DNA of 64,000 nt from an uncultured Gammaproteobacteria bacterium (GCA_965230895.1 OZ246394.1:1441887-1505886), one strand, 5' to 3'; counted from the first letter of the stretch, positions 37,301 through 51,300 are shown. The notes: generated from the sequence alone by a model not told the origin. Numbers and translations: made by a program.

Positions 37301-39358
37301 ACAGGAACCGGTAATATCTTGCTTGGTGGTGGATTCGGCTCAACAGGGTGTACGCTTACAAATTCATCTGGAGCATTTGCATGTAATGGAGCGATCACAG
37401 GTTCAAACATTTCTGGTTCAACTTCTGGAACAAATACTGGCGACCAGACGATCACGTTAACAGGAGACGTTACTGGATCAGGCACAGGATCTTTTGGTAC
37501 AACCATTGCAGATAATGCTGTTGATGGTACAGACATCTCACTTGCTTCTGAGGCACAAGGCAATATCATGTACTTCGATGGAACTGATTGGGTACGATTG
37601 GCAAATGGTACAGGCAATCAAGTGCTTCACTCCGGTACAACTCCATCATGGGGAGCAGTGGATCTCACAACTCAAGTTACTGGGACACTTCCAATCGCAA
37701 ATGGTGGTACAAATTCAACAGCAACTCCAACCAATGGCGGAATCGCTTATGGAACTGGAACTGCATTTGCATTCACAAGTGCAGGAAGCGGTGGACAATG
37801 TCTCCAATCAAATGGAGCAGCAGCTCCAACATGGGGATCATGTGGCGGTGGTATTTCAAATTACTGGAATATCAACCAAGGCACAATTGCTCCTGTAAAT
37901 ACAACACTCGACTTGTTGGTTGGTGGCACAAGTTCATCATCAGCGAAGTTTGCAGTATTGGGCATAAATTCAGGCACACCAACAGCATCTGTTTCAGCAA
38001 CAGCTTCAGGCAATGGACTCTCACTTGGTGGCGATGCAGTGATCCAGTCACTTCGAAATAACACATTAACTATCGGTGGAAATACGACTGGCAACATCAC
38101 ATTGTCACCTTTGAATGGAAGTGGTACAGTCACTTCAACTGGCGATCTTAACCTCGCTACTGGTAAAGTATTCCAGATTAATGGAGCATCAGTTCTCTCA
38201 TCAACAACCCTTGGTACAAGTGTCGTATCATCATCTCTTACAACAGTTGGAGCTTTGAATGCAGGTTCAATTACATCCGGATTTGGAGCAATTGATGTCG
38301 GCTCAGATAACATTGCTGGAGGAGACATCACTGCAAGTGGAACTACTGGTTACATCGCTTCAGGCAACGGTGCTGGCTTAAACTTCTCAGGAGCAAGTAC
38401 CCATACAATTCAAGCGTCAGCAGGTACATTGCAGATCAACGCTTTCACCATGGGTGGAGCAATTACAGGGGGAGGAAATAACATCACTGGCCTTGGGCAG
38501 CTTACTGTTGATAACTTAAGACTTGATGGAAACACATTAGATACAACTTCTGGTGATCTTACAATTGCAGCAAGTGGTGGTGATATCATCTTCTCAGATA
38601 CAAATACACTTAATATTGGTGGCAATGTTTCAGACGTTGCATACAATATCATTGGCGACACTATCTCAGGTGCAAATGGAAATATGAATTCAGACGATGA
38701 TTTGTTCGTCGAAGGAGATTTGCAAGTTGCTGGTACACTCTTTGCGAATGTCACAACAGGTTTGGCTGCAAATTCACTCGTCTTCACTGGAACCAATGGT
38801 GTGCTTTCTGTTGATAGCTCTAACTTCTCAGTGAATAACACAACCAAGAGAATTGGTATTGGTACAAATTCACCTTTGGCATCGCTTGATGTTCGAGCAA
38901 CTTCTGGTACTGTGCCAGCAGCATCAGTTTCAGGTACAACTGCAATGGCAGCAATGATCGTCGATAATAATGGTGTAGGTGATCTCTTCACAGCAAGTAA
39001 GTCTGGTGCAACGAAGTTCGTAGTCACAAATGCAGGGAGAGTTGGTATTGGGACAGGGACACCATCAACGACTGCATTACTTGATGTTGAAGGACAGATT
39101 CAATCAAGTGAATTACAACTGACATCAGGAGGAGTAATCGGATGGAATTATTACAATAATGGACTTGATCGATACCTCGCAACAGGAGAAGCATTCCAAT
39201 GGTGGCAGAATGGAGCAAACCTTAACCTTATGTCAGCAGGGAGTGGAGCAGCAAACAGTCAGATCGTCTTCAAGACAGCAATGACTATCAATGCAAGCGG
39301 CAATGTCGTCGTAAACAATGATGGTAACGCACAGGATTTCCAGGTTAAAAGGAGATAA
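25319..39358 (+). CDS. Giant surface protein 1, part 1: N-terminal MerR-type HTH, one TM helix, about 4,500 aa of nested tandem G/T/S/N-rich repeats. The ORF-track start at 25289 is a TTG; the ATG at 25319 matches the start context of paralog 2.
   Basis: LTIQEAAKLLGVSPTTLRRWEERKVLLPYRTAGNQRRYSREQL fits the MerR HTH pattern (TLRxWE..G.L.P.R...G.R.Y). TM LSPMAGVFAALVVFVGFVLAASLAP. Long uninterrupted frame. Paralogous to 45391.. and 54607.. Confidence 0.85.
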   Translation: MNESLLTIQEAAKLLGVSPTTLRRWEERKVLLPYRTAGNQRRYSREQLLAFKKNGYRPVQMASVAPSDAPKVNEPIVTPMHQAQASVDQLITPQSPVQTTANPILVTQTQNEANVQVSDIVSQAQERVVSGYKMPSRLPNVRELSPMAGVFAALVVFVGFVLAASLAPTWGEDLDRLGKGFPRDGASAQQVLAANDNTPLFVLKVNVPSVFGKKASFLDSVDISKGLTVGGVATMSGGIITNNADINAGTGRLTASNVVYSVLAGNNISITGDPQNPTISADFGGGVVSSFQGQSGAVSLLQGSGIGLDGLTITNTGVLSVQGQSGAVNFTGGAGITLNNLTITNSDPGSAQKIFSTFNIDGTPVAASSNTDTFNFAAGSGITLSTNTTDKILTISANGGATSQWTTTGSDIYYNLGNVGIGNSAPGTTLDVTGDGRFSGTLTVSGLSTGIVKADGSGLLSTSALNLAGGASEITGVLPVANGGTGLSSIPTNGQLLIGNGTDYTLGNLTGTVNQITISNGAGSITFSTPQDIHTAASPTFATMNLTNSTNQLVFGTGTTGTISMDPLTTNRTYTFPDASGTVCLTSGNCSGGGGGGISGAGTTNYIAKFTSSSGISDSSIYDNGKVGIGTTSPEGLLTVSGGPAGKALAVFNYTGSGQNILTASASGTTRLTINSSGDLNIIGGAYQINGTSVLTSNTLGSGIVNSSLTSVGALDSGSITAGFGNINVGMDSISGGDITSVGPVGFVSTGNGAGLSFSGTGNHDITASSGVLRLGAVTLTGALTGNGQNVTGLNNLSAGGTVTFGGLGTGIVQSNGSGVLSSGALNLAGGASYVTGVLPVTNGGTGLNSFNTGDLIFASASNTLAALPIGTEGQVLAVSGAGTPTWISTGTLNYWQRANGALAPLNISDDLLVGGVSTASAKFQIFGISGNASTSGTFTFNTAGVIQSTNNHGITIGGSTTGNITLSPQNGSGTVTSTGNLNLLSGKVYQINGSNVLTSSTLGSSVTASSLTSVGTLTGGSIASGFGTIATANTITGTTLNGTTGINTGAGGGTQRIDTSGNLTNIGTTQLNGITYTWPGSAGGSNNVLTSDGSGGLSWNDVTTLPGVGDITAIGDVLSGPAFTAGGTQGTSLYFYDADGRGQLTIANLTAARTYTLPDASGTICLDSGNCAGSGGGIVGTGTAGQLAFFNGTGTITSETSGFAWDATNKKLGIGTDTPTGKLTVSGAAAGKALAIFDELGDQDIFSASASGITQLRLARNGDLAIEGMLSDLTQNALTVNDNLNLVSGNAFQINGTNVLSSSTLGSGVVSSSLTSVGALSSGSIANGFGSIFTSNTIQGSDITASGTTGFTASGNGAGLTFSGTGNHSISASSGTLQIGAATLTGDLTGNSQSIVGVNNLSASGTITFGGLSTGIVKSNGSGILSSSAVNLASGDITGTLGVANGGTGITSVGGAGGVAYSNGSTFAFTAAGLSGQVLVSNGTGAPSWTDPSTLGTNYWQRNSGLLAPLNIADDLAVGGSSTGSAKFQIFGGTGNASTSGTLTFNTAGTIQTTNNQTLTFGGASTGNIVFSPLNGAGTVLVNGSMNLSSGNTYQINGTTVLSATTLGTGVVNSSLTNVGILTGGSIASGFGTIATANTITGTTINGTTGINTGAGAGTQRITNNGNLVNIGTTQLNGVTYTWPSADGSSDYVLTTDSSGGLTWKNVTSVGGAGDITAIGDVTSGAAFTAAGTQGTSLYFYDTDGRGQVTIANLTAPRTYTLPDASGTVCLDSGNCAGSGGGLTGSGTAGQVAFFNGTGTLTSETSGFAWDATNKKLGIGTNTPTGKLTVSGGATGKALAVFDETGDQDIITASASGTTQFVLNRNGNLAIEGQLSDLSQNTLTVNDNLNLTTGNEFQINSASILSASTLGSSVINSSLTSVGALTSGSIASGFGTILTTNTIQGSDITASGATGFTASGNGAGLTFSGTGNHIVSASSGTLQFGAATLTGAITGNGQNVTGLNNLSAGGTITFGGLSTGVVKSNGSGVLSSSAIGLNTGDVTGTLPVGNGGTGQTSFTTNGVVYGNGSSALSVTSAPTGGQVLLGNNSGVPTFTTISGGVTISNTGVATIALSSSGDTGNTSSNSGLEFNTTDGLSLLRGCANDEILKWNDSSKTWVCATDAGGSGSAGTINVQNNEVGIGSNVDTIDFGTDFTVAASPSNEANVSIADDVLDFSEFIDNMTLDANTSIATANFNLTLGTNAGTGGVVVSPNAGGNAALIVNKQGTGDIFTASASGTTRLTLSNSGNLNIVGGSYQIGGTNVLSSSTLGSGVIASSLTSVGALNSGSITSGFGAIDTGTDAISGGDITATGTTGFTASGNGAGLTFSGTGNHSISASAGTLQLGATTLTGAITGNGQNVTGLNNFSAGGTVTFGGFTTDGGLLYTNGSGVLAQTSAGTGGQCLVSNGGGAPTWGACAGGLANYWNLANGVITPQNSTVDFLIGGQATSSAKFAVLNVNSGTPTASVSAGATGGLSIAADGTIGTTNRQSLTLGNSSTGNIVLNGFGAGIVKTTASGVLSSSALNLASAEVTGTLGVGNGGTGQTSFTTNGVVYGNGSSALSVTSAPTGGQILMGNNSGVPTFTTVSGGLTLSDTGVASIVLTSSNDTANTSSNSGLEFSTANGLSLLRGCNNGQILKWNETSKLWECGSDAGGTGGPAGVVNVENNDSGVGTDVDTIDFSSDFLVTASPSTEANVSIADDVIDFTELADSLSLDAATQIALNNFNLTLGTNAGTGGVIVAPNAGGNAALIINKQGTGDIFTASASGTTRLALTNSGDLNIIGGAYQIGGTSVLSSNTLGSGVVNSSLTSVGALNSGSITSGFGAIDTGTDNISGGNLTATGTTGFIASGNGAGLTFSGTGNHDITASGGTLRLGAATLTGAITGNGQNVTGIANLGATGTVTFGSFTTDGGLLYTNGSGVVAQTAQGTAGQCLLSNAGGAPTWGSCTGGLANYWNQNNGALSAMNSTVDLLVGGQSSASAKFAVLNVNSGTPTASVSAGATGGISIAADGTIGTTARQSLTLGNSTTGNIVLNGFGAGIVKTSASGVLSSSAIGLNTADVTGTLPVGNGGTGATSFTAGGVLYGNGSSAVAASSQGTAGQALLSGGTGAPTWTTGTLSLAGNFTTAGANALTLTTTGATNVTLPTTGTLATLAGTETLSGKTLTAPRIANGGFIADANGNEQLIFNTTASAINELTLTNAAASGVVTLAATGGDTNIPFAIDAKGTGELRLNGTGTGNILLGGGFGSTGCTLTNSSGAFACNGAITGSNISGSTSGTNTGDQTITLTGDVTGSGTGSFATTIADNSVDGTDIALGSDTAGDLMYYNGTDWVRLAAGTGNQVLHSGSTPSWGALDLTTQVTGTLPIANGGTNSTATPTNGGIAYGTGTAFAFTSAGTGGQCLQSNGAAAPTWGTCTGGLANYWNLSNGTLAPVNTTLDLLVGGTSSSSAKFAVLNVNSGTPTASVSAGSAGAAYLTAAGALQTTANQTLSLGGNTTGNIVLNGDGSDRVGVGVSTPVAMFNIGEYSDSVVSLALGNDANAANYGLAAFNNNLKLVAPSGFRFMTGTPGGTEVMTITGGNLGVGVTSPTAKLDVNGAASVSGSLTFRTGAGTIQTTANNTLTLGGNTTGNIVFNPLNGAGTVRITSLANCNTIDTDANGVLSCGTDESGGVQNYWNLSNGALSPVNSTADLLVGGAASSSAKFAVLNVNSGTPTASVSAGSAGGASLTATGVLGTTARQSLTLGNSTTGNIVLNGFTTGVVKSNASGVLSSSAIGLNTADVTGTLPVGNGGTGATSFTAGGVLYGNGSSAVAASTQGTSGQVLLSGGTGAPTWTTGTLTLAGNFSTSGANALTLTTTGATNVTLPTTGTLATLAGTETLSGKTLTAPRFVNGGFIADANGNEQLIFNTTASAINELTLTNAAASGVVTLAATGGDTNIPFAIDAKGTGELRLNGTGTGNILLGGGFGSTGCTLTNSSGAFACNGAITGSNISGSTSGTNTGDQTITLTGDVTGSGTGSFGTTIADNAVDGTDISLASEAQGNIMYFDGTDWVRLANGTGNQVLHSGTTPSWGAVDLTTQVTGTLPIANGGTNSTATPTNGGIAYGTGTAFAFTSAGSGGQCLQSNGAAAPTWGSCGGGISNYWNINQGTIAPVNTTLDLLVGGTSSSSAKFAVLGINSGTPTASVSATASGNGLSLGGDAVIQSLRNNTLTIGGNTTGNITLSPLNGSGTVTSTGDLNLATGKVFQINGASVLSSTTLGTSVVSSSLTTVGALNAGSITSGFGAIDVGSDNIAGGDITASGTTGYIASGNGAGLNFSGASTHTIQASAGTLQINAFTMGGAITGGGNNITGLGQLTVDNLRLDGNTLDTTSGDLTIAASGGDIIFSDTNTLNIGGNVSDVAYNIIGDTISGANGNMNSDDDLFVEGDLQVAGTLFANVTTGLAANSLVFTGTNGVLSVDSSNFSVNNTTKRIGIGTNSPLASLDVRATSGTVPAASVSGTTAMAAMIVDNNGVGDLFTASKSGATKFVVTNAGRVGIGTGTPSTTALLDVEGQIQSSELQLTSGGVIGWNYYNNGLDRYLATGEAFQWWQNGANLNLMSAGSGAANSQIVFKTAMTINASGNVVVNNDGNAQDFQVKRR
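25328..25480 (+). other. MerR-type helix-turn-helix domain at the cytoplasmic N-terminus of giant protein 1 (equivalents at about 45400-45550 and about 54616-54760)
   Basis: TIQEAAKLLGVSPTTLRRWEERKVLLPYRTAGNQRRYSREQLL fits the MerR/HTH_17 pattern. Conserved in all three paralogs and immediately followed by about 100 aa of linker and one TM helix. Confidence 0.7.
34589..35840 (+). repeat. Near-identical 1.25-kb segment, copy A (pairs with 36746..37995; offset 2157 nt, 719 codons)
   Basis: Long runs of identical nucleotides, e.g. tcatcaagtgc.atcggtttgaatacagcggatgtcactggtaccttgccagttggtaatggtggtactggagcaacatcgtttacagccggtggtgtcctttatggaaatggttcaagtgcagtagcagcttc in both copies. Confidence 0.85.
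36746..37995 (+). repeat. Near-identical 1.25-kb segment, copy B
   Basis: See copy A. Protein identity is above 95% over about 415 aa. Confidence 0.85.
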
Positions 39359-41111
39359 TGATGCCAATCTGTTATTCACCCAGGGATCAACAGATAGAGT
39401 TGGTATCGGGACAAATACTCCGTTAGCAAAACTTGATATCCGTGGAACACTTGGTACAACGACAGTAGCATCAGTTTCAGGAAATACTTCGAGAGCAGCA
39501 TTCCTCGTTGATAATAATGGAGTTGGTGATTTGTTTACTGCAAGTAAATCTGGTGCACGAAAGTTTGTTATCAATAATCAAGGATATCTTGGCTTGGGAG
39601 GCGCAAATGCTGATACAACAAATTATATTAGTGCCGCTAACTTTGCAGTCCAAAATGATGGGCAAGTTTACACAACAGGTCTTAATAATTACAGCTCAGG
39701 GAATAATGCTTACATCAACTTGGCTTTAACAGGTACAACTATCCAACGTAACGTTGCTGATGCCAATGCAGCATTGATTGTCCAACAGCTTAATGCTTCA
39801 AGTACAGGAGATATCCTTCAATTAGCAAACAGTGCTGGTACAGTTTTGAAAGTCACAAGAGGTGGTTCACTTGGTCTTGGTGCAACAACACCACTTGCAA
39901 CCTTTGATGTTCGGGGTAATTCTGGTACCACACCAGTTGCTTCAGTATCAGGGCTTACCTCAATGGCAGCATTGGTTGTAAATAACAATGGTGTTGGTGA
40001 TCTCTTTACAGCTTCTAAGTCTGGTTTGCCTAAGTTTACAATTAAAAATAACGGAAGAGTAGAAATCGGACAACAGGTAACCAATCCAAGTTCAAATGAT
40101 ACGCTGACGATAAAGAACATCGCAGGTTCAAATACAGACTTCTCTATGGAAGATGGAAATGGTGTAAATCGATGGACATGGTTCGCAAATACAAGTGGCG
40201 TTACTGGTTTCTATGACGCATCAAATGCATTGACGCCATTCTATATTGAAGAGGGTGCAGGCAATAACTCAATTACAATTGATTCTACTGGCAATGTCGG
40301 TATTGGTGTAGCAAATGCTACGCAGGCGCTTGAACTTTCTTCCGGAAAGATTATCCAAATGAATTCAGGTCAAATTCAGGATTATGGTGATATCACTATG
40401 AAGTTGGATGCTGATAACAATGGCTCAAATGACTTCGAGATCTTGAACGGTGGTAGCACTTCCGTCTTCAAGGTAACAGAAGCTGGTGTTGTAACTATCA
40501 CTGATGGAAGTGGGAATGGATTCAGCTTCGATCCAGCAACTGGTCCAACATATTCAGGTACAGCAAGACCACCAAGAAAGGTTACACTAAGTGCAGAATA
40601 TCCAGGAGCTATCCTAACAGCATCTGGTTCAGCGACAACAAATGGACTTATGACATCTGATGCTTCTCCATCTGCAGCAACTCTAGCAAGATTTATGAAC
40701 TACTATGAATGGAATTCCAGCCAGACATCATATCAAGATTATACAGTTGCGGTTAAAGTAACATTACCTGATGATTTTGTAGCCTGGGAAACATCAAATG
40801 CAATTCAGATTTATTACAACACTGAAGCTGGCACAAACACAAGTAATAAGCTAGACGTTCGAATTCAGAATGCTGATATCGGCCTAACGCTTGCAGAATA
40901 CTCGACTCCAGTGGCATTACGTACAAATCAAAATACGTCATCAAAGGCATGGACTGCAATTTCTATTGATGACTCAGAAATTGATAGAGGAGTGAATCAG
41001 GATCTTGATATCGCTGGGGATACAGCAATTATTTTCTTGAAGATGTATTCTAAGGATAATAACTATGTCCAAGTTGGAGATATAATCCTCAATTACAGAT
41101 CGAATAAGTGA
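39318..41111 (+). CDS. Giant surface protein 1, part 2 (same repeat family continues in the +1 frame; unique about 230-aa C-terminal domain). Probably one gene with 25319..39358, interrupted by a frameshift near 39346.
   Basis: The translation continues the LDxRGxxGTTxVASVSG...NNGVGDLFTASKSGxxKF repeat units seen upstream. The 41-nt overlap of the two frames lies at an A4 homopolymer (gttaaaaggag). Confidence 0.7.
   Translation: MMVTHRISRLKGDNDANLLFTQGSTDRVGIGTNTPLAKLDIRGTLGTTTVASVSGNTSRAAFLVDNNGVGDLFTASKSGARKFVINNQGYLGLGGANADTTNYISAANFAVQNDGQVYTTGLNNYSSGNNAYINLALTGTTIQRNVADANAALIVQQLNASSTGDILQLANSAGTVLKVTRGGSLGLGATTPLATFDVRGNSGTTPVASVSGLTSMAALVVNNNGVGDLFTASKSGLPKFTIKNNGRVEIGQQVTNPSSNDTLTIKNIAGSNTDFSMEDGNGVNRWTWFANTSGVTGFYDASNALTPFYIEEGAGNNSITIDSTGNVGIGVANATQALELSSGKIIQMNSGQIQDYGDITMKLDADNNGSNDFEILNGGSTSVFKVTEAGVVTITDGSGNGFSFDPATGPTYSGTARPPRKVTLSAEYPGAILTASGSATTNGLMTSDASPSAATLARFMNYYEWNSSQTSYQDYTVAVKVTLPDDFVAWETSNAIQIYYNTEAGTNTSNKLDVRIQNADIGLTLAEYSTPVALRTNQNTSSKAWTAISIDDSEIDRGVNQDLDIAGDTAIIFLKMYSKDNNYVQVGDIILNYRSNK
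39340..39356 (+). other. Putative +1 frameshift site in giant gene 1 at an A4 run (ccaggttaaaaggagataa)
   Basis: Deleting one A converts ...DFQVKRR* into ...DFQVKGDNDANLLFTQGS..., continuous with ORF 39318..41111. Confidence 0.6.
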
Positions 41112-41245: not shown

Positions 41246-44200
41246 ATGCATACTGCCTTATTAATGCAAGAATCACGCCTCAATCATCTCAAACGTATCG
41301 TGGCGGTCGTGAATATCATGACACTTGCTTTGGGACATTTTGCTTTGCCTGTTCATGCAGCAGTTGGTGCAAGTACTTCTGCCCAACCAACAGCTTCTCA
41401 AACAAAAGCTCCCGTCAAAAAGGTTGCAGGAATATCTAATGAAATCAACCGATTGACGTTGGCTGATGATGCTTACTCCAATATCTCTGCGAAACCCCCA
41501 ATCCCGGTAACTGTGGATGTAATGGAAAAAGAAGATTACAAAGCCGATGAACCAGTCACTGTCACAGTGAACAATCCGGATCGGGATGCATTTACGGCCA
41601 AAGTTGTTAATGCAAAAGGTGAAGAAATTCCTGTTGAAAAAAGAATTGTGGACCGGGGAAGTGAAGCCGAAGTGCTTTTGGCGAGTACCAATCAATTTGT
41701 TCCCGGCAAATTTACCATTGAGGTTACTGATGCCAAAGGCAATATATCCAAACAGGATTTCACCTGGGGAGTCCTGGCTTTGAATACAGATAAGGCAACG
41801 TACAAACCGCAGGAAACCGCAGCAATTTCCATGGCTGTTCTTGATGACAAAGGAGAAATGGTTTGTAATGCGGATGTCACGCTCAAAATTACCAACGAGC
41901 AAACCTATATGCAAACGACTTTGTCTACCGAAAACGGTAAGATCGAAATAAATAAAGAATGCTCGACTAAAATCCTGACAACTGTCCCTGATTATGAAGC
42001 CACATATGTCGTTGGCGACGAAGGTAAATATGCGATGGAGCTGCAGGCAAAAACAGAAAAGGGAAGTTACACAATCCATGATGAATTCAATGTCAAAGCG
42101 CAAACACCTTTCGAGATCCGACGAACAAGTGCAACCCGTTTGTATCCACCTCTTACATATCCGATGAATATTGAAGTCACTGCAAGTGAAGATTTTGAGG
42201 GAACTGTCACAGAAACTGTGCCTGATAGTTTTACCATTACACCAGTCGATCAACAATCATCCTATGATGGATTAAAGACTGTGTATTTGGATGGCAAAGA
42301 TCCTGAGAAAAGGATTGAGCAAAATGTCCTGGGTGCAAGTATGTCCGCATTGCAAATGCCTTTTGACGGAAGCTATGCTATCACCCAAGGTTTTGGAGGG
42401 TATATGACCGATGGGGAATTGCGTAATTTCTACTCACAATATGGTCTCTCTGGACATGATGGAGTGGATTTCGCTTTGCCGATGGGAACGCCTCTTTATG
42501 CTGTGGACGATGGCAATGTCGTTTTCTCTGGCCCTGGAGATTATGGTATCACCATCATCATCCAACATGCCTGGGGGAAATCCTATTACGGCCATTTAAG
42601 TAAGGCAGAGGCTCCAAAGGAATCCTCTGTAAAAAAAGGCTCGCTCATCGGATACTCAGGAAATACAGGTGAATCAACCGGACCCCATTTACATTTCGGG
42701 ATGAAGCCAGAGAATCCTGACATGAATAATGGCTATTCTGGGAAAATCGATCCACTTCCATATCTCAATCTTACCGGCAATGGCATCAGACCTCCAGCTT
42801 TGGAACAGGCAATCAATTCATCAGGAGTTCTGTCTGCAACAACTTCGGCTGAAAGTGAAGCAACACATTCCGCAGACAAACCAAACCTGACCGAACCTGT
42901 CGCTCCAAGTGCTTCAGCATCAGCAACGCCTGAGCAGACGAAGGCACTCAATGAAGAAAAGGCTGCACCGTTTACTGTCTTGAGTCAGGAAATAGCAAAT
43001 GAAGTCGCAGATTCTGAGACGAGTGTGACTGAAAAAGTAAAAGTCCTGAAGTGGAAGGTCTCTTTGAAGAAGGGCGAGAAGACGACATTGAGTTACGCAT
43101 ATAAAGCACCTGAAGTAAGTCCACAATTTTATCTTTTAGGTTCTGTAAAAATTTTTAACAAGGATGAGCAGCTTGTCTTCGATGATGTGCGTAAATGGCA
43201 GCTTGCAGGCGACGCAATCGGTGCAAAGTGGTACGACTACAATTGGTTATATCGCAAGGAGATCTCAATTGATAGCTCTCAGGTTCCTTCTACACAGACT
43301 AATTTCCCTGTCTTAGTTAGTTTGACAAGTGATAGTAATCTCTCTACCAGTTCACAAGCTGATGGAGACGATATTCTCTTTACCGATGGAACTGGTATAA
43401 CGAAGCTTTCGCACGAAATCGAAAGCTATAGCTCAGGTACGTTGGTTGCTTGGGTGGAAGTGCCAAGTGTTTCCTCTTCATCGAACACAAGTATTTATAT
43501 GTACTACGGCAATGCAACAGTATCTAGCCAACAAGATGTAGCAAATACTTGGAATAATGGTTCTAATCAGTTTAGATTCGTACAGCATTTAAATGATGGT
43601 AACGTAAGCACAGTTGTTGATTCGACAACAAACGGGAATAATGGTACGAAAATAGTTTCTGCTTCGCAGCCATCTAATTATGCGAGTGGCAAAATAGGAG
43701 CAGCAATGGATTTCGCAGGAAATTCAGCGGGTGCTACAGGTATCACAATCTCTGGCTCACCAGCCAATATTCTTGACGTTACAGATAGTGACTATACATT
43801 CAGCGGATGGTTTAATCCTGATACAATACCCGCTGCCACAGGATTGAGAGATTACGCAGTTGTAGGAAGAAGAGGAAATTTCAGTGGATTAAGTTACGCT
43901 GCGAATCCTGATTTCTTTGCTACCCTTCGCACGACGAGTGCCTTTAACGCCAATACTGCTTCTAATGTCTATGCTACGGGCAGCTGGCATTACGTTGTCC
44001 AGACCGTTAATAATACTTCTAAAGTTCTTTCAATTTATGTTAATGGTTCATTAGTAGATTCTACTTCCTATACCGGAACTTTGCGCAACTATTCAAGTAC
44101 TGAGCCTTATATGATTGGAAGAGCAGATCCAAATGGTACATGTAATACAGATTATGTTTGGTGTGCTGATGGGAAGATCGATGAGGCAAGGCTTTCCAAT

Positions 44201-44371
44201 GTCGCTAGATCAGCGGATTGGATAGCAACCGAGTATAACAATCAAAATTCTCCTGGAACCTTCTACACAGTCGGTTCTGAAGAAACAAAAGTGTATGCGC
44301 CATTGCCTGCTGAGCTTATGCGTCATGGGAAATTCTTTGATACTAGGGGAGAGCAGCCATTCGTTTTCTAG
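41246..44371 (+). CDS. Secreted multidomain protein: N-terminal anchor/signal, Ig-like beta domains, M23 (LytM-type) metallopeptidase domain, DUF2341-like domain and C-terminal LamG/concanavalin-A-like lectin domain
   Basis: M23 motifs GHDGVDFALPMGTPLYAVDDG and GYSGNTGESTGPHLHFGM (HxxxD, HxH). WYDYNWLYRKEISID...NFPVLVSL resembles DUF2341. C-terminal DGKIDEARLSNVARSADWI is a typical LamG_3 ending. Confidence 0.8.
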   Translation: MHTALLMQESRLNHLKRIVAVVNIMTLALGHFALPVHAAVGASTSAQPTASQTKAPVKKVAGISNEINRLTLADDAYSNISAKPPIPVTVDVMEKEDYKADEPVTVTVNNPDRDAFTAKVVNAKGEEIPVEKRIVDRGSEAEVLLASTNQFVPGKFTIEVTDAKGNISKQDFTWGVLALNTDKATYKPQETAAISMAVLDDKGEMVCNADVTLKITNEQTYMQTTLSTENGKIEINKECSTKILTTVPDYEATYVVGDEGKYAMELQAKTEKGSYTIHDEFNVKAQTPFEIRRTSATRLYPPLTYPMNIEVTASEDFEGTVTETVPDSFTITPVDQQSSYDGLKTVYLDGKDPEKRIEQNVLGASMSALQMPFDGSYAITQGFGGYMTDGELRNFYSQYGLSGHDGVDFALPMGTPLYAVDDGNVVFSGPGDYGITIIIQHAWGKSYYGHLSKAEAPKESSVKKGSLIGYSGNTGESTGPHLHFGMKPENPDMNNGYSGKIDPLPYLNLTGNGIRPPALEQAINSSGVLSATTSAESEATHSADKPNLTEPVAPSASASATPEQTKALNEEKAAPFTVLSQEIANEVADSETSVTEKVKVLKWKVSLKKGEKTTLSYAYKAPEVSPQFYLLGSVKIFNKDEQLVFDDVRKWQLAGDAIGAKWYDYNWLYRKEISIDSSQVPSTQTNFPVLVSLTSDSNLSTSSQADGDDILFTDGTGITKLSHEIESYSSGTLVAWVEVPSVSSSSNTSIYMYYGNATVSSQQDVANTWNNGSNQFRFVQHLNDGNVSTVVDSTTNGNNGTKIVSASQPSNYASGKIGAAMDFAGNSAGATGITISGSPANILDVTDSDYTFSGWFNPDTIPAATGLRDYAVVGRRGNFSGLSYAANPDFFATLRTTSAFNANTASNVYATGSWHYVVQTVNNTSKVLSIYVNGSLVDSTSYTGTLRNYSSTEPYMIGRADPNGTCNTDYVWCADGKIDEARLSNVARSADWIATEYNNQNSPGTFYTVGSEETKVYAPLPAELMRHGKFFDTRGEQPFVF

Positions 44372-44476: not shown

Positions 44477-45004
44477 ATGCTGAGTGCCATGCAAAAAGTA
44501 AAAACCTTTCATAAAAAACACCCAGTTGCTTCCACACTGATTGCAGTAGGATTAGTCGGTGTTCTCATTGGTGGTGGATATGGTGGCTTTCGTTACTGGC
44601 AGTATACAATGAGCCCTGAGGGCATCTTCCAGAAAGAAGCAAAGCAATACGAATCTGATTGGAATGCGATGATGAAAAACGCTGGAGAGCAGATAAATCT
44701 TCCGAAAGATGAAGTCCCAGTGCTCGCAACAGTTACTGACAAGTCTGCTCTCGATAAACAAAAGTTTTTTGCAAATGCACAGGAGGGAGATAAAATTATC
44801 ATGTATAAAAAACACAAAATTGCGTATCTTTATCGTCCTTCAGTTGGGAAGGTCATTACCAAAGCAACGTTGAACTTGGTTGCTCCAACAGCAATTCCTT
44901 TTGAATCTGCTTCTGTTGCAGGGACATCTTCCTCAGAACTTGAGAAAGGGCCAGTGATAGAAGCTTCAAAAGAAGGAACCCTCGATAAACTCATACCGCA
45001 ATAA
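44477..45004 (+). CDS. Small membrane-anchored hypothetical protein (175 aa)
   Basis: One TM helix LIAVGLVGVLIGGGYGGF, then a soluble domain. Located between the M23 protein and giant gene 2. Confidence 0.5.
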   Translation: MLSAMQKVKTFHKKHPVASTLIAVGLVGVLIGGGYGGFRYWQYTMSPEGIFQKEAKQYESDWNAMMKNAGEQINLPKDEVPVLATVTDKSALDKQKFFANAQEGDKIIMYKKHKIAYLYRPSVGKVITKATLNLVAPTAIPFESASVAGTSSSELEKGPVIEASKEGTLDKLIPQ

Positions 45005-45390: not shown

Positions 45391-48300
45391 ATGAACAACG
45401 AGTATCTAACAATTCAAGAAGCTGCAACTTTTTTCCGCGTTTCGACAAGGACGCTCAGACGCTGGGAAGAAAAAGGTTACCTTACGTCTCACCGGACGTT
45501 TGGGAACCAAAGACGCTACAGTAAAGCGCAGCTATCCCAATTGCTGGGTGCTGCCGCAGCAGCGGGTGAGGCTGATGTCCAAGTTTCTGAGCAGACAAAT
45601 ACCGCAAAGCCATTTGGATTTCAATCCCAGCCGCAGTATGTCCCTCAAAAAGCCTCAATAGCACATCCAAACCCGATTCCAGTTCATTCGATTCACAAGC
45701 AAATTCAGCCTGAACCTACTCATATCCAAACACTCAAACCTGAGCATAGATTCCATAAGCCTCAATCTGCCATGACATTTGGTGCTGTGATTGCAATAAT
45801 TCTTTTGTCGACGATTGCAGTTATAGGATTTTCGAATGCGCAAACGATTGATGAAAAAAGTCAAGCATTTATCTCATTTCTGAAACCAGGAGAAACGGTC
45901 GAGCAAGTAGGTGGACAAAGTGTTCTTGCTGCAGAAGATAGAATCTCTTCTTTGCAGTTGCAAGTTGATGTGCCAGCTGTATTCGCAAAAAAAGTGACCT
46001 TTCTCGATGCATTTGAGATCAAGAATAGTTTGACAGTGAACAGTGCTTCAAACCTCTTTGGTGGAATTAAAACAAACAACAAAGATATCGATGCAGGAAC
46101 TGGCCAACTGACTGCATCAAACGTGGTCTATTCAGTTCTTTCCGGTACAAATATTTCCATTACCGGTGATCCTCAAAACCCAGTAATCTCCGCACAAGGT
46201 GGAGTAAATTCTGTACAAGGTTTAACTGGCACAATTGCCTTTACCTCAGGAAATGGAATTGATCTTGATGGGTTGGAGATTGTGAACACTGGTGTGCTTT
46301 CATTGCAAGGAGAAAGCGGCGATGTAGCATTTACAGGTGGAACTGGAATCGGCGTGAATGGTCTCACCATCACCAATACTGATCCAGGTTCTGCTCAAAA
46401 AATCTTTGGAACGATTCGCGTTGGATCAACAAATATTTCAGCTGGGTCAAATACAGATACGTTCACAATTTCAGCCGGTGCAGGGATAACATTGGCTCCA
46501 GATGCTGGGAACAAGACATTGACCATCACGAGCAATGCAGCTGGAGTATTGAGTGGCATGACGACAAACGGAGTCTTGTACGCAACCTCTGCAACGACAG
46601 CAACTTCAACTGGGGAAGCTCCAAATGGCTTTATCCTCAAATCAATGGGGCCAGGAAATGCACCACAATGGGTTGCTCCAGGAACAGTTCTTGGATATCT
46701 GCCGTTTGATTTCCTTACGGATGGAACCAATACCACTGCCAACATGATCGTTGGGACCGGAGCAAGTCTTGGGTACACAGGAAGTGGGACGATTAATGCT
46801 TCCTCTTTACAAAATGCGACTTGGGTTGCTCCAGGTGCAATCGGTTCATCAACGCCAAATACCGGTGCATTCACTGCTCTTACAGCAACGACGTTGAATG
46901 GTTTGACTGTCACAGCAAACGGTGCTAATACTCTCAACATAGCTACAGGGAAGACAATTACACTTAACAACTCTCTCTCACTTTCAGGAACAGATGGGAC
47001 TGTCTTCACATTCCCATCAGCAAACGACACACTTGTTGGCCGAAATAGTACAGATACCTTGACCAACAAAACTATTGCTGCGGGATCAAATACCATAACC
47101 GGTTTGACAAATTCCAATCTTTCAGGATCCGCAGGGATTACCAATGCAAATCTCCAAAATTCATCACTTACCGTGACTGCAGGGAGTGGCTTGTCTGGTG
47201 GAGGATTGGTAAGTCTCGGAGGATCGGTTTCACTCCAAAATGCCGGTGTTACATCCGCAACCGCAGGGACTGGAATTTCAATCAACGTTGCGACAGGGGA
47301 TATCACTGTCACCAACAATGGCGTGACATCTGCAGTTGCTGGAACAGGTATCGGCGTCAGTGGTCCGACTGGAGCGATTACGTTTACAAACAACGGAGTG
47401 ACTTCATTGACAGGGACCGCAAACCAAGTAAATGTTTCAGGAAGTACTGGAGGCATTACGTTGAGTTTGCCTCAGAACATTCATACAGCAGCGACTCCAA
47501 CATTTGCAGGATTGACGCTTTCAAATCTCACGGCAAATGGCGGGATCTTATACACCAACGGCACAGGAACTGTTGCACAAACTTCTGTGGGATCGCCTGG
47601 TCAATGTCTCACTTCTAATGGAGGCGGTGCTCCATCCTGGAGTACTTGTGCAGGATCAAGCTATTGGAATCTTTCCAATGGAACACTCTCTCCAGTGAAC
47701 AATACATTGGATCTTTTAGTTGGCGGCACAAGTTCGAACTCCGCAAAATTTGCAGTTCTGAATGTTAATTCTGGAACACCTGTTGCATCAATATCAGCAG
47801 GATCTGCTGGAGCCGCTTATTTAACAGCAACTGGTACATTGCAAACCACTGCAAACCAAACACTCTCGCTTGGCGGCAATACAACTGGCAACATCATCTT
47901 GAATGGTGATGGGAGTAATAACGTTGGGATCGGCACTTTAAATCCAACGTTTGGTTTGGATGTAGCTACGGTAAATGGTGCACGGATACTCTTTGACGAT
48001 GGCTTGGGAGACCCTCGCATTCACTTCAGTCAAGTAGGAGATAATCCAACCCAAGATTTCTACCGATGGACAGGTTCTGGAAGTAATTATTTCGCTTCAC
48101 GATTTAATGTGAGTCCCGGAACAGGTGATGGGATTTTTAACATTCAGGGTGCAAATGATACAAACATGGGCTCGCATACTTTCTCTGATCTTTTGAGTAT
48201 CGTGCTGGGCGGACCAAATCAAGGAAACGTAGGTCTTGGTAACTCTGCTCCTTCACAATTTCTTGATATGGTTCGAAACCAGAACGAATCAACAATGGTA

Positions 48301-51300
48301 AGTTTGGCAAATACAGATAGTGGTGCATTTGCTTACACCATGTACCGAGTTGCTAACGATACTGGCAATGGGGAATTTGGTATTGGTTCATCGGGTAATA
48401 ATGACTTTGCATTTGCGAATAGAGCATATCTTTACGCAAGTTCAGCGACAAATGGTTTAACTTTAGCTGCTGATGGAAGTGGGGATGATATACGGTTTTA
48501 CACAGGAGGTTATGCTCCAACAGATGAACGAATGCGGATTGATAGTGCGGGAAATGTTGGAATCGGAGCAAGTCTTCCACTTGCTACGCTTGATGTTCGA
48601 GGCAATTCGGGAACAACTCCTGTTACATCAGTCTCAGGTATCACGGCACAAGCTACATTGCTCGTCGATAATAACGGAGTGGGTGATCTCTTCACCGCAA
48701 GTAAATCTGGTGCTACTCGGTTTAGTATAGCTAACAATGGAAATCTTATTGCAACGGGCACCTTAACTGGCTTAACGGGTTTGACTACTTCGGGAACAGT
48801 AACGTTGTCATCACTCACAACTGATGGAGGAATCATGTTCACAAATGGTTCCGGAACAATTAGTCAAACGTCTGCAGGAGGTCTTGGTCAATGTCTGATG
48901 TCTAGTGGTGGAGGTGTTCCAACTTGGGGAACATGTGCAGGTGGCACAAATCTTTGGCAATCAAACAATGGAACAATCTCACCATTCTCAAGTGCGCTTG
49001 ACCTCTTGGTCGGTGGTACAAGTACTGCTTCTGCAAAATTCAGATTTATCAATGCGAATTCAGGAACCCCAACAGCATCAATCTCAGCAAACTCAGGCAA
49101 CAATGCCGCATACTTAAGTGGCACTGGAATCTTGTCCACGACAAATGCTCAAACATTAACTCTTGGAAGCGCAACCACAGGAAATGTCGTGGTTGATTCA
49201 GGATCTGGATTGATTACACTTTCAGACAACACAACTGTTGCAGGTAATCTCAATCTCCAAACAGGAAATGCATTCCAGATCAATGGCACCAATGTTTTGA
49301 CTAATAATACGCTTGGATCTGGTGTGACGACATCTTCTTTGACAACCGTTGGCGCCTTAGCAAATGGATCCATAGCCAATGGATTTGGCACGATCTTTAC
49401 CTCGAATACGATTCAGGGAAGTAATATTACCGCAAGTGGGACAACCGGATTTACAGCTTCAGGAAATGGTGCTGGACTCACATTCTCTGGCACAGGGAAC
49501 CATGACATCACAGCATCCAGTGGTACGCTTAGAATGGGTGATGTTACCTTTAACGGCGTTATCACAACCGGTCTCACTGGCAACAACGCTGCACTGTACG
49601 CTGTTTCAGGGACAGGAACATTAGCAGGTGCAACAACAAATACACAAAACCTCTGTCTCTTGTCTGGGGTATCAGCTCCTGCCTGGGGAAGTTGTCCGAT
49701 TGGGGCAAATTACTGGAATCAAAATAATGGCGCGTTATCTCCAATGAACTCCACTGTCGATTTCCTTTTGGGCGGCCAAGCTTCAAGCTCCGCGAAGTTT
49801 GCAGTACTCGGTATGAACTCAGGAACTCCAACAGCATCAGTTTCAGCAACAAGCACTGGAAACGGATTATCATTGGCTGGCGATGGCACGATTCAAACGC
49901 TCCGAAATAATACACTCACATTAGGCGGAAGTACCACCGGAAACATTCTCCTTATGCCTACCAATGGAAGCGGGCGAGTAGGGATTGGGACTGCAACGCC
50001 GCAGAGTACATTGGATGTAAATGGGACAGTAAGGTTTACCAATCAATTGAATTTTACTGATGCAGTCTTTGGGCAAATCCAAACGCTTGTAGGAAATGCG
50101 TATCTTGATTTCAAGACAGCAGCTGGAACTGGTGCAATTACCTTTACACCAAATGCAACAGAAGCAATGAGAATTTCACCAAATGGTATGGTCGGAATTG
50201 GTACAAATGGATTGCTTACACCATTTGCAACATTGGATGTTCGCGGCCGATCAGGAACTTCACCAATTGCCTCATTGTCTGGTGCAACATCGCAGGCATC
50301 TTTGGTTATTGATCAGTCTGGTGTTGGGGATCTCTTTACTGCAAGTAAATCAGGCCTCACAAGATTTGTTATCGATAATGCTGGCAACGTAAAGGTTGGG
50401 ACACAAACATCCGGTGCGAGTTTGCAAGTGACAGGTATGAGTGGCTATGGAGTTATGATTGGCGGCGGCGCTGGTGGAGGAAATACAATTGATGGAACTT
50501 TGAATGGTGTAATGAATCAGCCATTGTGGCTTAACTCTGCATCTGCGCAAGATGTCTATATTGCTCCAAACGGTGGAAGTGTTGGTATAGGTACAAGTGC
50601 TCCTGCAGGAGCACTTGATGTCAGAGGTAATTCAGGAACTGCACCAGCTGCTTCATTCTCGGGACAAACATCTCGAGCAGCAATGGTTGTCGACAACAAT
50701 GGCACCGGAGACATCTTTACAGCTTCAAAATCAGGTGCATCAAAGTTCACGATCTTGAATAACGGAAACCTTCAAGTAAATAATTACACGACAAATGGAG
50801 GAGTCCTTTATACAAATGCGTCAGGAGTTGTTGGCCAAACAGCAGCTGGTTCAGGTGGACAATGTTTGCAATCTAATGGTGGAGGCGCACCAACATGGGG
50901 TTCATGTACTGGAGGTATGGTTAATTACTGGCAGCAAAACAATGGCGCTGTCTCTCCAGCAAATAGCACCAATGACTTCATTATTGGAGGTACTGCAACT
51001 TCATCAGCACGATTCTCTGTAACAGGAATGAGTTACACACTTGGAGGCGTGAGCTCTTTTAACTCTGCTAATGCACTTCCATCAGGGAGAACATTTAATG
51101 GCGTAGTCTCAGCAAATGGATATATCTATTCAATCGGTGGATACAATGGTGGTGGTCAATCAACTGTTTACTATGCATCATTGAATGCAGACGGTTCAGT
51201 GGGAGACTGGAGAACGACATCAGCTTTGCCTACAAGTTTGAGTAATGCGACTGCAGTTGTCTACAACGGCTACGTATATGTGGCTGGTGGACAGGTTTCT

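What the first reader, a model, noticed from the sequence alone, without database searches (positions are those of the whole stretch)
41246..44371. A 1,041-aa secreted M23 peptidase-DUF2341-LamG protein is embedded between the giant genes
The catalytic M23 (LytM/lysostaphin-type) motifs are intact (HDGVDF...D, HLHF), so the protein probably cleaves peptidoglycan cross-bridges. It is fused to a DUF2341-like module and a LamG-type lectin domain (DGKIDEARLSNVARSADWI ending). Placement inside the giant-protein locus suggests a functional link. It could be a wall-breaching or remodelling enzyme delivered to a target cell, or a tool to thread the giant fibres through the organism's own wall.
Basis: partly seen in the sequence, partly recalled or inferred. 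Interest (0 to 1): 0.65.

Follow-up and report, generated by a model that had tools for sequence, protein, structure and literature searches.

The report
Fibre-partnered wall-cutting enzyme of CPR bacteria
A secreted, apparently active cell-wall-cutting enzyme in an uncultivated Levybacteria-like bacterium belongs to a conserved gene trio with a giant membrane-anchored surface fibre and a small membrane protein, which gives a testable handle on how these tiny bacteria deal with cell walls, their own or a host's.

Summary
ORF 41246-44371 (+) encodes a 1,041-aa protein with a Sec-type signal peptide, three MG/Ig-like beta-sandwiches, an intact M23 domain (H404, D408, H450, H481, H483; best solved relative zoocin A), a conserved beta-sandwich, DUF2341 and LamG.

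New points:
- The family ends in an almost invariant C-terminal peptide, (L/M)MRHG(K/E/Q)(W/F)F...QPF(T/V)F.
- In 42 of 56 evaluable relatives, across Levy-, Ames-, Gottesman-, Roizman-, Woese- and Shapirobacteria, the gene directly upstream ends in one conserved ~190-aa jelly-roll domain. Gene ends often overlap.
- In the window this domain ends ORF 39318-41111. That ORF is the frameshifted tail of giant gene 25289-39358.
- A small membrane protein follows in 24 of 53 relatives (here 44477-45004).
- The giant proteins have an N-terminal cytoplasmic MerR-type HTH, one transmembrane helix and a G/S/T/N-rich exterior.

So the link to the giant gene is real and conserved, and it is specific to fibres carrying that end domain.

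Best reading (inferred): a peptidoglycan endopeptidase that partners its fibre and uses variable lectin modules for targeting, most likely on a neighbouring cell's wall. Opening the producer's own wall for the fibre is the main rival. I rate it a new variant of a known kind, of moderate interest.

The parts
41246..44371 (+). Gene for the 1041-aa secreted M23 / DUF2341 / LamG protein (the finding)
   Evidence: ORF list and translation; Pfam; 374 homologues
41246..41359 (+). Signal peptide, aa 1-38; predicted cleavage after VHA
   Evidence: Read from the sequence; AF2 models a helix at 4-32 followed by a disordered stretch at 33-82; relatives carry analogous A-x-A ends. Inferred, because no predictor was available
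41528..42286 (+). Three tandem MG/Ig-like beta-sandwich domains, aa 95-347, with invariant C207 and C239
   Evidence: AF2 pLDDT about 90 or higher; Foldseek matches to complement and alpha-2-macroglobulin MG arrays; Pfam MG2 below its cut-off; 47% mean identity across the family; 1889 representative proteins carry the module
42353..42775 (+). M23 metallopeptidase domain, aa 370-510; Zn and catalytic residues H404, D408, H450, H481, H483
   Evidence: Pfam; zoocin A 5kvp at E 1.3e-27; invariant residues; lysostaphin 4qpb at TMt 0.79, rmsd 2.3
42779..42979 (+). Disordered S/A/T/P/E-rich linker, aa 512-578
   Evidence: AF2 pLDDT below 50; low occupancy in the family alignment
43013..43213 (+). Conserved beta-sandwich, aa 590-656
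   Evidence: AF2; invariant G610, Y617, P622, Y629, G632, W651; 50% mean identity
43247..44290 (+). DUF2341 (aa 668-780) plus LamG / ConA-like lectin module (aa 781-1015); the variable part of the family
   Evidence: Pfam; AbnA domain 4 5hon at TMt 0.70 and the sialidase lectin domain; LamG only 26% mean identity
44303..44368 (+). Family-hallmark C-terminal peptide ...ELMRHGKFFDTRGEQPFVF (aa 1020-1041)
   Evidence: H1027, G1028 and F1031 invariant, R1026 and F1039 at 90% or more; present whatever domains precede it; apart from one 86-aa chance regex hit, found only on M23-family ORFs among 4754 ORFs of related loci; the only copy in the window; AF2 models a low-confidence beta-hairpin
25289..39358 (+). 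Giant fibre gene G1 (4689 aa as listed; probable ATG at 25319): MerR/HTH_17 domain, TM helix at about aa 153-182, G/S/T/N-rich exterior
39346..39349 (+). AAAA run where one extra A splits G1 from ORF 39318..41111
   Evidence: Deleting one A joins ...DFQVK to GDNDANLLF...; in the closest relative, L009, the matching domain is the C-terminus of one 5623-aa protein; the Logan contig L001 is identical
39318..41111 (+). ORF p597, the C-terminal part of the G1 fibre
40545..41108 (+). Conserved fibre end domain (CTD), a ~190-aa jelly-roll
   Evidence: Alignment A2 with the MTSDAS and NYYEW motifs; AF2 pLDDT 84.6, pTM 0.81; weak CBM / MAM / adhesin and phage-fibre-end fold matches; no Pfam family; ends the ORF directly upstream of 42/56 M23-family genes
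44477..45004 (+). p175: small N-in membrane protein with a conserved ~65-aa outer domain
   Evidence: TM at aa 15-39; homologues downstream of the M23 gene in 24/53 loci; alignment A3; 7/26 members add LytR_C
45391..53958 (+). Giant gene G2 (2855 aa): HTH, TM, Kelch propeller at about 1885-2072, and a different C-terminus (neighbour, not the partner)
54607..64000 (+). Giant gene G3 (more than 3130 aa, runs off the window): HTH, TM, fibre-like exterior

Best explanation
The gene encodes a Sec-exported, catalytically competent zinc endopeptidase of the lysostaphin / zoocin A type. Such enzymes cut peptide cross-links in peptidoglycan. It is the dedicated partner of the membrane-anchored fibre encoded directly upstream (G1 plus p597). 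The fibre has a cytoplasmic HTH, one TM helix, a long G/S/T/N-rich exterior and a conserved jelly-roll end domain. The inferred mechanism runs as follows. The fibre and the enzyme are made together. The enzyme's conserved parts (the MG-like array, the beta-sandwich and the C-terminal MRHGxWF...QPFxF peptide) hold it on the fibre's conserved end domain or on the small membrane protein p175. The enzyme's variable DUF2341/LamG lectin modules choose the glycan surface. The M23 domain then opens peptidoglycan locally, most likely in the wall of a neighbouring (host) cell that the fibre contacts. Shown: the architecture, the intact active site, the conserved gene trio, and the co-occurrence of the C-terminal peptide with the fibre end domain. 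Inferred: physical docking, the substrate, and whose wall is cut.
For: Intact M23. Pfam gives 87.8 bits. The HxxxD and HxH motifs plus H450 are invariant in 53 sequences. Zoocin A matches at E 1.3e-27, including the post-HxH segment NGYSGKIDP. The model matches lysostaphin at TMt 0.79 and StM23 at TMt 0.81.

Conserved pairing. Context look-ups put relatives directly after giant genes in four of the five contexts: the window's own contig (the MerR-type start is documented for the window gene) and the loci of P0002, P0014/P0017 and P0015/P0016. The MerR-type start is recorded for P0002 (5623 aa) and P0014/P0017 (4829 aa). Nothing is on record for the 5117-aa neighbour of P0015/P0016. In 68 genome loci, 42/56 M23-family genes have an ORF ending in the p597-type end domain within -213 to +442 nt upstream. 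Many overlap by 4-31 nt, which suggests coupled translation. Only 47 of 4754 ORFs carry that domain, and 42 of them sit in that position. A p175 homologue lies downstream in 24/53.

Peptide and end domain co-occur. The counts are 36 (both), 6 (peptide only), 2 (end domain only) and 9 (neither), Fisher p = 5e-5.

Conserved versus variable parts. Mean identity to the window protein is MG-like 47%, M23 63%, sandwich 50% and C-terminal peptide 55%, against LamG 26%. C-terminal domains are swapped or repeated among relatives.

Several pairs per genome and tandem duplicates. Loci L010, L012 (two copies) and L017 come from one MAG. P0014/P0017 and P0015/P0016 are tandem.

Housekeeping candidate elsewhere. 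A separate small LysM-M23 gene in a related genome is a more ordinary housekeeping candidate.

Fibre topology. The HTH is inside and one TM helix follows, so the C-terminus lies outside the cell.

Precedent. In another CPR bacterium, giant surface proteins and secreted peptidoglycan hydrolases have been proposed to mediate host attachment and wall degradation (PMC8080830).
Against: No experiment and no expression data are available. Docking was not tested, because no multimer prediction was available and the model coordinates could not be read. The peptide / end-domain association is not corrected for phylogeny, since peptide-less genes are the most distant relatives. A first, cruder test gave p = 0.67. 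The hosts of Levybacteria-like organisms are unknown, and if they lack murein the enzyme must act on the producer. Some p175 relatives carry LytR_C, which points to the producer's own envelope. In the window the intergenic gap is 134 nt with no overlap, and the upstream gene is frameshifted. Fourteen of the 56 family genes lack the end-domain neighbour. Three or four of these are second copies in tandem pairs.
Confidence: 0.45

Rival explanations
1. Space-maker for the producer's own wall. The enzyme opens the producer's own peptidoglycan locally so that the bulky folded exterior of the membrane-anchored fibre can pass through and be displayed. This would be like the dedicated wall hydrolases of flagella, type IV and type VI secretion systems (FlgJ, VirB1, TagX).
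For: The same conserved pairing with a membrane-anchored fibre applies. The fibre's N-terminal TM anchor means its whole exterior must cross the wall. Some p175 relatives carry LytR_C, a domain of cell-envelope proteins. The core of the enzyme and the fibre end domain are conserved across class-level lineages, which fits a conserved self ligand.
Against: G2 and G3 are equally large and equally anchored, yet have no enzyme of their own. Short end-domain proteins of about 500-900 aa still have a partner enzyme. One hydrolase could serve all fibres, yet genomes keep several specific pairs and tandem copies with differing lectin modules. The linkage is to the fibre's C-terminal end domain, not to its membrane-proximal part.
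Confidence: 0.3
2. Ordinary autolysin or wall-turnover enzyme. Its adjacency to surface-protein genes would reflect only shared regulation of envelope genes, with no physical or functional partnership.
For: M23 enzymes with signal peptides are commonly growth and separation autolysins (general knowledge; the review PMC9662197 is listed). NCBIfam hits are to MepM, ShyA and DipM, all below the equivalog cut-offs.
Against: 42/56 have the same end-domain neighbour, against about 1% of ORFs carrying that domain. Stop and start codons overlap in many pairs. A family-specific C-terminal peptide co-occurs with the neighbour. There are several copies per genome. A separate LysM-M23 candidate for housekeeping exists.
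Confidence: 0.1
3. Maturation protease. The M23 domain cleaves the fibre protein itself (for example releasing or trimming the conserved end domain) rather than peptidoglycan.
For: The pairing is conserved and specific to the end domain. Some M23 enzymes cut Gly-Gly bonds in proteins (general knowledge, e.g. LasA).
Against: No glycine-rich conserved site lies next to the end domain in alignment A2. The closest relatives are wall-lytic enzymes. Lectin-type C-terminal modules suggest a glycan surface target.
Confidence: 0.05
4. Prophage or phage-tail-derived lysis cassette (tail fibre, endolysin, holin-like small membrane protein).
For: The gene order resembles it superficially. The M23 domain hits phage endolysin and tape-measure families. 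The end domain's fold weakly resembles ends of phage fibres.
Against: PHROG hits are confined to the M23 domain. The fibre and p175 have none. The flanks are housekeeping genes: ATP synthase, tRNA ligases, NDK. The fibre has an N-terminal HTH and a TM anchor. The enzyme has its own signal peptide. The trio is conserved chromosomally across many lineages.
Confidence: 0.02
5. Catalytically dead LytM-type activator of amidases (like EnvC, NlpD or ActS).
For: A weak NCBIfam hit to ActS (24.4 bits against a cut-off of 375) and a PDB hit to EnvC at E 3.9e-4.
Against: All five zinc and catalytic residues are present and invariant.
Confidence: 0.01

Closest known systems
Zoocin A and lysostaphin (secreted M23 bacteriolysins of Gram-positive bacteria)
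   Same: The catalytic domain is the closest in sequence (zoocin A 5kvp at E 1.3e-27, including the NGxSGxIDP segment) and in fold (lysostaphin 4qpb at TMt 0.79). The logic is the same: a secreted catalytic domain, a flexible linker and a C-terminal targeting module.
   Different: The targeting modules here are DUF2341/LamG, not SH3b or TRD. A 250-aa MG-like array precedes the catalytic domain. A conserved C-terminal peptide is present. The gene is paired with a fibre gene. No FemABX-type immunity gene lies next to it. Instead a small membrane protein follows.
MepM / ShyA / Csd3 (Gram-negative M23 DD-endopeptidases for growth and cell shape)
   Same: M23 fold and motifs. NCBIfam domain-level hits of 58-67 bits. 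Multi-domain proteins in which other domains can gate the active site.
   Different: Scores are far below the equivalog cut-offs of 341-700 bits. The accessory domains and the gene context are different.
Dedicated wall hydrolases of envelope-spanning machines (FlgJ, VirB1, TagX; named from general knowledge)
   Same: A peptidoglycan hydrolase gene is genetically tied to a large surface structure.
   Different: The partner here is a single Sec-exported fibre protein, not a multi-protein machine. The tie is to the fibre's distal end domain. The hydrolase carries large lectin modules.
Phage long-tail-fibre tip adhesins (e.g. T2-type gp38 on gp37) and virion-associated M23 lysins (general knowledge; PHROG hits)
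   Same: A fibre is followed by a separately encoded protein that could sit on its end and carry host-recognition or wall-cutting functions. The end domain's fold weakly resembles ends of phage fibres.
   Different: The system is chromosomal and cellular. The fibre is membrane-anchored with a cytoplasmic HTH. There are no phage genes around. Docking is not shown.
Giant surface proteins and secreted wall hydrolases of Vampirococcus lugosii (PMC8080830)
   Same: It is a CPR bacterium in which giant membrane proteins were proposed for host attachment and secreted hydrolases for host-wall degradation.
   Different: That paper does not describe a conserved fibre / hydrolase gene pair, the end domain or the C-terminal peptide.

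Membership tests
Peptidase family M23 (lysostaphin type) | Match to PF01551 above the gathering score | tested here: met
   87.8 bits against 28.7, aa 403-490
Peptidase family M23 (lysostaphin type) | HxxxD zinc-ligand motif | tested here: met
   H404-D-G-V-D408; both invariant in 53 sequences
Peptidase family M23 (lysostaphin type) | HxH motif plus the upstream catalytic His | tested here: met
   H481-L-H483 and H450 (YYGHLS), all invariant; they align to zoocin A PHLHF and YAHLS
Peptidase family M23 (lysostaphin type) | M23 fold | tested here: met
   AF2 pLDDT mostly 77-95 across the domain; 4qpb at TMt 0.79 and rmsd 2.3; 9gy1 at TMt 0.81
Peptidase family M23 (lysostaphin type) | Cleavage of peptidoglycan peptide bonds | not testable with these tools
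   Needs a zymogram or muropeptide analysis
Degenerate LytM-domain amidase activators (EnvC / NlpD / ActS) | Loss of zinc ligands | tested here: not met
   All ligands are present
MepM / ShyA equivalogs (NCBIfam) | Full-length score above the equivalog cut-off | tested here: not met
   67.4 against 341 (MepM); 58.1 against 700 (ShyA)
LamG / concanavalin-A-like lectin (PF13385) | Profile match and jelly-roll fold | tested here: met
   65.3 bits against 27.6; 5hon_A at TMt 0.70
LamG / concanavalin-A-like lectin (PF13385) | Carbohydrate or other ligand binding | not testable with these tools
   No ligand information can be drawn from the sequence
DUF2341 (PF10102) | Profile match above the gathering score | tested here: met
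   49.3 bits against 23.4, aa 706-778
Alpha-2-macroglobulin MG2 domain (PF01835) | Profile match above the gathering score | tested here: not met
   22.6 bits against 32.8; only fold-level resemblance to MG arrays
Sortase-anchored surface proteins | C-terminal LPXTG-type motif, hydrophobic segment and basic tail | tested here: not met
   No [LIV]Px[TSA]G motif; no C-terminal hydrophobic segment
Contact-dependent / polymorphic toxin systems (CdiA-CdiI type) | Variable toxin domain at the fibre's C-terminus followed by a cognate immunity gene | tested here: not met
   The fibre's C-terminus is a conserved jelly-roll, not a variable toxin. The enzyme is a separate gene with a conserved catalytic core. 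An immunity role for p175 was not tested
Phage lysis cassette / prophage | Phage structural or lysis gene families in the neighbours | tested here: not met
   PHROG hits fall only in the M23 domain; the flanks are housekeeping genes
Dedicated hydrolases of surface machines (FlgJ / VirB1 / TagX type) | Conserved genetic linkage to the surface structure | tested here: met
   42/56
Dedicated hydrolases of surface machines (FlgJ / VirB1 / TagX type) | Required for assembly of that structure through the producer's wall | not testable with these tools
   Needs genetics or imaging

The most novel reading that the evidence does not exclude
The fibre and the enzyme form a cell-borne 'tail fibre with a lytic tip'. 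The conserved jelly-roll at the outer end of the membrane-anchored fibre would hold the M23 protein through the enzyme's conserved modules or its C-terminal peptide. The enzyme's exchangeable lectin modules would select the host surface. The M23 domain would breach the host wall at the contact point. The fibre's cytoplasmic MerR-type HTH would then couple this surface device directly to DNA. That would be a Microgenomates-wide host-contact apparatus with no described counterpart.
Probability: 0.22. Interest if true: 0.8.

Novelty: new variant of a known kind. Interest (0 to 1): 0.55.

Why it matters
Microgenomates-type CPR bacteria are abundant but uncultivated, and how they attach to partners or obtain material from them is unknown. 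This work identifies a conserved, multi-copy gene trio: a fibre with a conserved end domain, an active-looking wall endopeptidase with exchangeable lectin modules and a hallmark C-terminal peptide, and a small membrane protein. That gives concrete, clonable parts for several tests: enzyme specificity on candidate host walls, binding between the peptide or core modules and the fibre end domain, and localisation. If the enzyme acts on foreign walls, its lectin modules could help predict hosts from metagenomes. If it acts on the producer's own wall, it would show how monoderm cells push megadalton fibres through peptidoglycan. In either case the M23 domain by itself is ordinary.

Tried and rejected
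- tRNA and Rfam scans of the window found nothing.
- The promoter and terminator scan of 40900-45500 was not above shuffled expectation (16 against 10 +/- 2.9; 4 against 3.4), so it gives no evidence for or against an operon.
- No tandem DNA repeats were found in the giant genes.
- Pfam found no family for p597, its end domain or p175.
- A PDB profile search with the p175 family found nothing.
- The first peptide / end-domain test was uninformative (p = 0.67), because split ORFs were scored as lacking the peptide. The refined test gave p = 5e-5 but is not corrected for phylogeny.
- The C-terminal peptide was considered as a general sorting signal. That idea is not supported by the data in hand. 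Apart from one 86-aa chance regex hit, the peptide occurs only on M23-family ORFs in about 1 Mb of related loci and once in the window. Whole genomes were not scanned.
- Literature searches found no description of this gene trio, the peptide or HTH-anchored giant fibres. One search was wasted on an ambiguous term.
- Model coordinates could not be read, so I could not check whether the C-terminal peptide contacts the active site.
Full report
OBSERVATION. ORF 41246..44371 on the + strand starts at ATG and encodes 1041 aa. Pfam reports three domains above their gathering scores. They are Peptidase_M23 at aa 403-490 (E 5.5e-25), DUF2341 at aa 706-778 (E 6.9e-13) and Laminin_G_3 at aa 843-994 (E 8.9e-18). 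A sub-threshold MG2 hit lies at aa 180-220. The N-terminus has a basic stretch, a 19-residue hydrophobic core and VHA|A. Relatives have the same layout with A-x-A ends. I read this as a Sec signal peptide, but no predictor was available. There is no LPXTG motif and no C-terminal hydrophobic anchor.

ORGANISM AND SETTING. The window carries housekeeping genes: LeuRS, ComEA, ComEC, ArgRS, NDK, an M16 peptidase and the F-type ATP synthase. G+C content is 42.8%. The exact protein lies on a 1.61-Mb NCBI contig. The nearest named relatives of the ArgRS are Candidatus Levybacteria (70% identity) and Roizmanbacteria (57%). The organism is therefore a Levybacteria-like member of the Microgenomates (CPR / Patescibacteria).

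Three + strand giant genes surround the finding. G1 is 25289..39358 (4689 aa). G2 is 45391..53958 (2855 aa, with a Kelch propeller). G3 runs from about 54607 beyond the window end (more than 3130 aa). G1 and G2 begin with a MerR/HTH_17-type helix-turn-helix (Pfam E about 1e-11). G3 begins with the same motif by eye. In all three a single hydrophobic helix follows at about aa 125-182. The rest of each protein is rich in G, S, T and N. The topology is therefore N-terminus inside and everything else outside.

ANATOMY OF THE PROTEIN. An AlphaFold2 model built on a 53-sequence alignment has mean pLDDT 77. It shows:
- a signal helix at aa 4-32 and a disordered stretch at aa 33-82;
- three beta-sandwich domains at aa 95-347 (pLDDT about 90 or higher);
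- the M23 domain at aa 370-510;
- a disordered linker at aa 512-578;
- a conserved beta-sandwich at aa 590-656;
- DUF2341 at aa 668-780 and LamG at aa 781-1015;
- a low-confidence beta-hairpin at aa 1020-1041.

Foldseek against the PDB matches the M23 domain to lysostaphin (4qpb, TMt 0.79, rmsd 2.3 A) and StM23 (9gy1, TMt 0.81). It matches the N-terminal array to complement and alpha-2-macroglobulin MG arrays. It matches the C-terminal part to carbohydrate-binding jelly-rolls (AbnA domain 4 at TMt 0.70, and the sialidase lectin domain). By sequence the closest solved relative is zoocin A (E 1.3e-27), and the similarity runs past HxH into NGYSGKIDP. NCBIfam hits to MepM, ShyA and DipM cover the domain only and score far below the equivalog cut-offs.

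FAMILY. The search found 374 homologues. The family alignment A1 shows that H404, D408, H450, H481 and H483 are invariant. Two cysteines (C207, C239) and many residues in aa 150-330 and 600-656 are also invariant. So are H1027, G1028 and F1031 at the extreme C-terminus. Nearly every member ends in (L/M)MRHG(K/E/Q)(W/F)F, then 4-15 residues, then QPF(T/V)F, whatever domains come before. Mean identity to the window protein is 47% for the MG-like module, 63% for M23, 50% for the sandwich and 55% for the C-terminal peptide. It is only 26% for LamG. Many relatives replace or repeat the C-terminal modules. The MG-like module alone finds 1889 representative proteins at E <= 1e-3 and 839 at E <= 1e-30.

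THE LINK TO THE GIANT GENES. Context look-ups place relatives immediately downstream of giant genes. Those giants are 5623 and 4829 aa with a recorded MerR-type start, and 5117 aa with nothing on record. Some relatives occur as tandem pairs. I then fetched 68 genome loci, from Levy-, Ames-, Gottesman-, Roizman-, Woese- and Shapirobacteria MAGs.

BLASTP of the window's neighbours against all ORFs in these loci gave two results. First, the last ~200 aa of ORF 39318..41111 (p597) match the C-terminal end of the ORF directly upstream of the M23 gene in about 30 loci. Second, the 175-aa ORF 44477..45004 (p175) has homologues directly downstream in about 30 loci.

With profile HMMs, 42 of 56 evaluable family genes have an ORF ending in this end domain within -213 to +442 nt. 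Many overlap by 4-31 nt. Three or four of the 14 exceptions are second copies in tandem pairs. Only 47 of 4754 ORFs in the loci carry the domain, and 42 of them sit in that position. A p175 homologue lies within 3 kb downstream in 24 of 53. Partner proteins that are complete range from about 500 to 2000 aa. Those cut by contig ends exceed 3000 aa. The link is therefore to the end domain and not to size. G2 and G3 have other C-termini and are not followed by M23 genes.

The peptide-bearing subfamily and the end-domain neighbour co-occur. The counts are 36 (both), 6 (peptide only), 2 (end domain only) and 9 (neither), Fisher p = 5e-5. This is not corrected for phylogeny, and an earlier, cruder count gave p = 0.67.

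THE PARTNERS. p597 is the frameshifted end of G1. G1 reads ...NAQDFQVKRR**. The p597 frame reads ...LKGDNDANLLF. Removing one A from the AAAA run at about 39346-39349 gives DFQVKGDNDANLLF. In the closest relative the same domain ends a single 5623-aa protein. An independent Logan contig is 100% identical over 37357-48633, including the extra A. It may derive from the same reads.

The end domain has no Pfam family. It models confidently as a jelly-roll (pLDDT 84.6, pTM 0.81). It has only weak fold matches: CBM61, CBM11, CBM30, MAM and gingipain adhesin domains (TMt <= 0.56), and C-terminal parts of phage and giant-virus fibre proteins.

p175 has an N-in TM helix and a conserved ~65-aa outer domain. 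Seven of 26 relatives add a LytR_C domain. PHROG hits are confined to the M23 domain, so there is no sign of a prophage.

HOW IT MOST LIKELY WORKS.

Shown:
- an exported protein with an intact lysostaphin / zoocin-type active site;
- a conserved core and variable lectin modules;
- a conserved gene trio with frequent overlap of gene ends;
- several pairs per genome.

Inferred:
- the enzyme is made together with its fibre;
- it is held on the fibre's conserved end domain (or on p175) by its conserved modules or its C-terminal peptide;
- it is targeted by its lectin modules;
- it cuts peptide cross-links in peptidoglycan at the site the fibre reaches.

I favour a neighbouring cell's wall as the substrate (confidence 0.45), for four reasons. 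The pairing is one enzyme per end-domain fibre rather than one per genome. The recognition modules are the variable part, while the fibre end is conserved, as in phage fibres that carry a separate tip adhesin. Equally large anchored fibres without the end domain have no enzyme. A small LysM-M23 gene exists in a related genome as a housekeeping candidate.

The main rival is that the enzyme opens the producer's own wall so the fibre can pass (0.30). The LytR_C domains of p175 relatives and the deep conservation of the parts support it. Minor rivals are an unrelated autolysin (0.10), a maturation protease of the fibre (0.05), a phage cassette (0.02) and a dead LytM-type activator (0.01).

The C-terminal Phe-x-Phe end also resembles ligands of PDZ-type tail-specific proteases. 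That idea comes from general knowledge and is untested. Such a protease would be a control mechanism compatible with either main reading.

COMPARISON AND NOVELTY. The catalytic domain is an ordinary member of family M23, and all sequence and fold criteria are met. The protein is not a MepM or ShyA equivalog. It is not a degenerate activator, a sortase substrate or a CdiA-type toxin. In logic it works like lysostaphin and zoocin A: a catalytic domain, a linker and a targeting module. By genetic linkage it resembles the dedicated hydrolases of surface machines. I found no paper describing the trio, the C-terminal peptide or the HTH-anchored fibres. The nearest is the proposal that giant surface proteins and secreted hydrolases serve predation in Vampirococcus (PMC8080830). 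My verdict is a new variant of a known kind, with interest 0.55.

LIMITS.
- The loci were chosen through the M23 gene, so the reverse statistic (42 of 47 end-domain ORFs) is biased.
- ORFs were taken stop-to-stop.
- The counts are not phylogenetically independent.
- No expression, binding or activity data exist.

Noticed in passing
window 39318-39358 (AAAA run at about 39346-39349): Giant gene G1 (25289..39358) and ORF 39318..41111 are one fibre gene split by a single extra A. Removing it restores the repeat consensus DFQVKGDNDANLLF. The same base is present in an independent Logan contig (L001). It could be a true pseudogene, population variation, a programmed shift or a shared read error.
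   Followed up: partly
window 25319-25500, 45391-45540, 54607-54760: All three giant genes start with a MerR/HTH_17-type DNA-binding helix-turn-helix, followed by a linker and one TM helix. A cytoplasmic DNA-binding-type domain is thus fused to a giant extracellular fibre. Relatives in other Microgenomates share this start. Its purpose is unknown.
   Followed up: partly
window 44303-44368; loci L009-L072: The C-terminal peptide (L/M)MRHGx(W/F)F...QPFxF is a hallmark of this M23 family. It is not covered by any Pfam or NCBIfam model that matched here.
   Followed up: yes
proteins P0146, P0166, P0169, P0185, P0212, P0228 and others: The MG-like module of the enzyme also occurs in 2-3 copies inside other giant proteins (2.7-6.5 thousand aa) without M23. 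Several have the HTH start, and all end in a different conserved C-terminal strand, G[ST]Y[ST]T.[LI]TY[VI].T..F.
   Followed up: no
window 44477-45004; alignment A3: The p175 family has a TM helix and a conserved LPxxExPTIATVxD...NGDKVLxY...ILYRPSxNKII domain with no Pfam model. Longer relatives add a LytR_C domain.
   Followed up: partly
window 10657-11847 and 11957-13720: Two adjacent proteins carry C-terminal type I dockerin domains, one also with CBM_4_9. This is unusual for a CPR genome, and no cohesin partner was looked for.
   Followed up: no
window 51043-51606 (G2, aa about 1885-2072): A Kelch-type beta-propeller is embedded in giant protein G2. The G2-like C-terminal region also recurs near M23 genes in other loci (L019, L070, L071).
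   Followed up: no
loci L009, L011, L013, L016, L019 and others: Many third-party MAG records carrying these CPR loci are titled 'uncultured Gammaproteobacteria' or 'Pseudomonadales'. The gene content shows that these labels are wrong.
   Followed up: no
L006 and L007; L012, L043, L049: The M23-family genes are often tandemly duplicated, with different C-terminal modules. Sortase genes lie a few kb away in two loci, although the enzymes have no LPXTG motif.
   Followed up: partly
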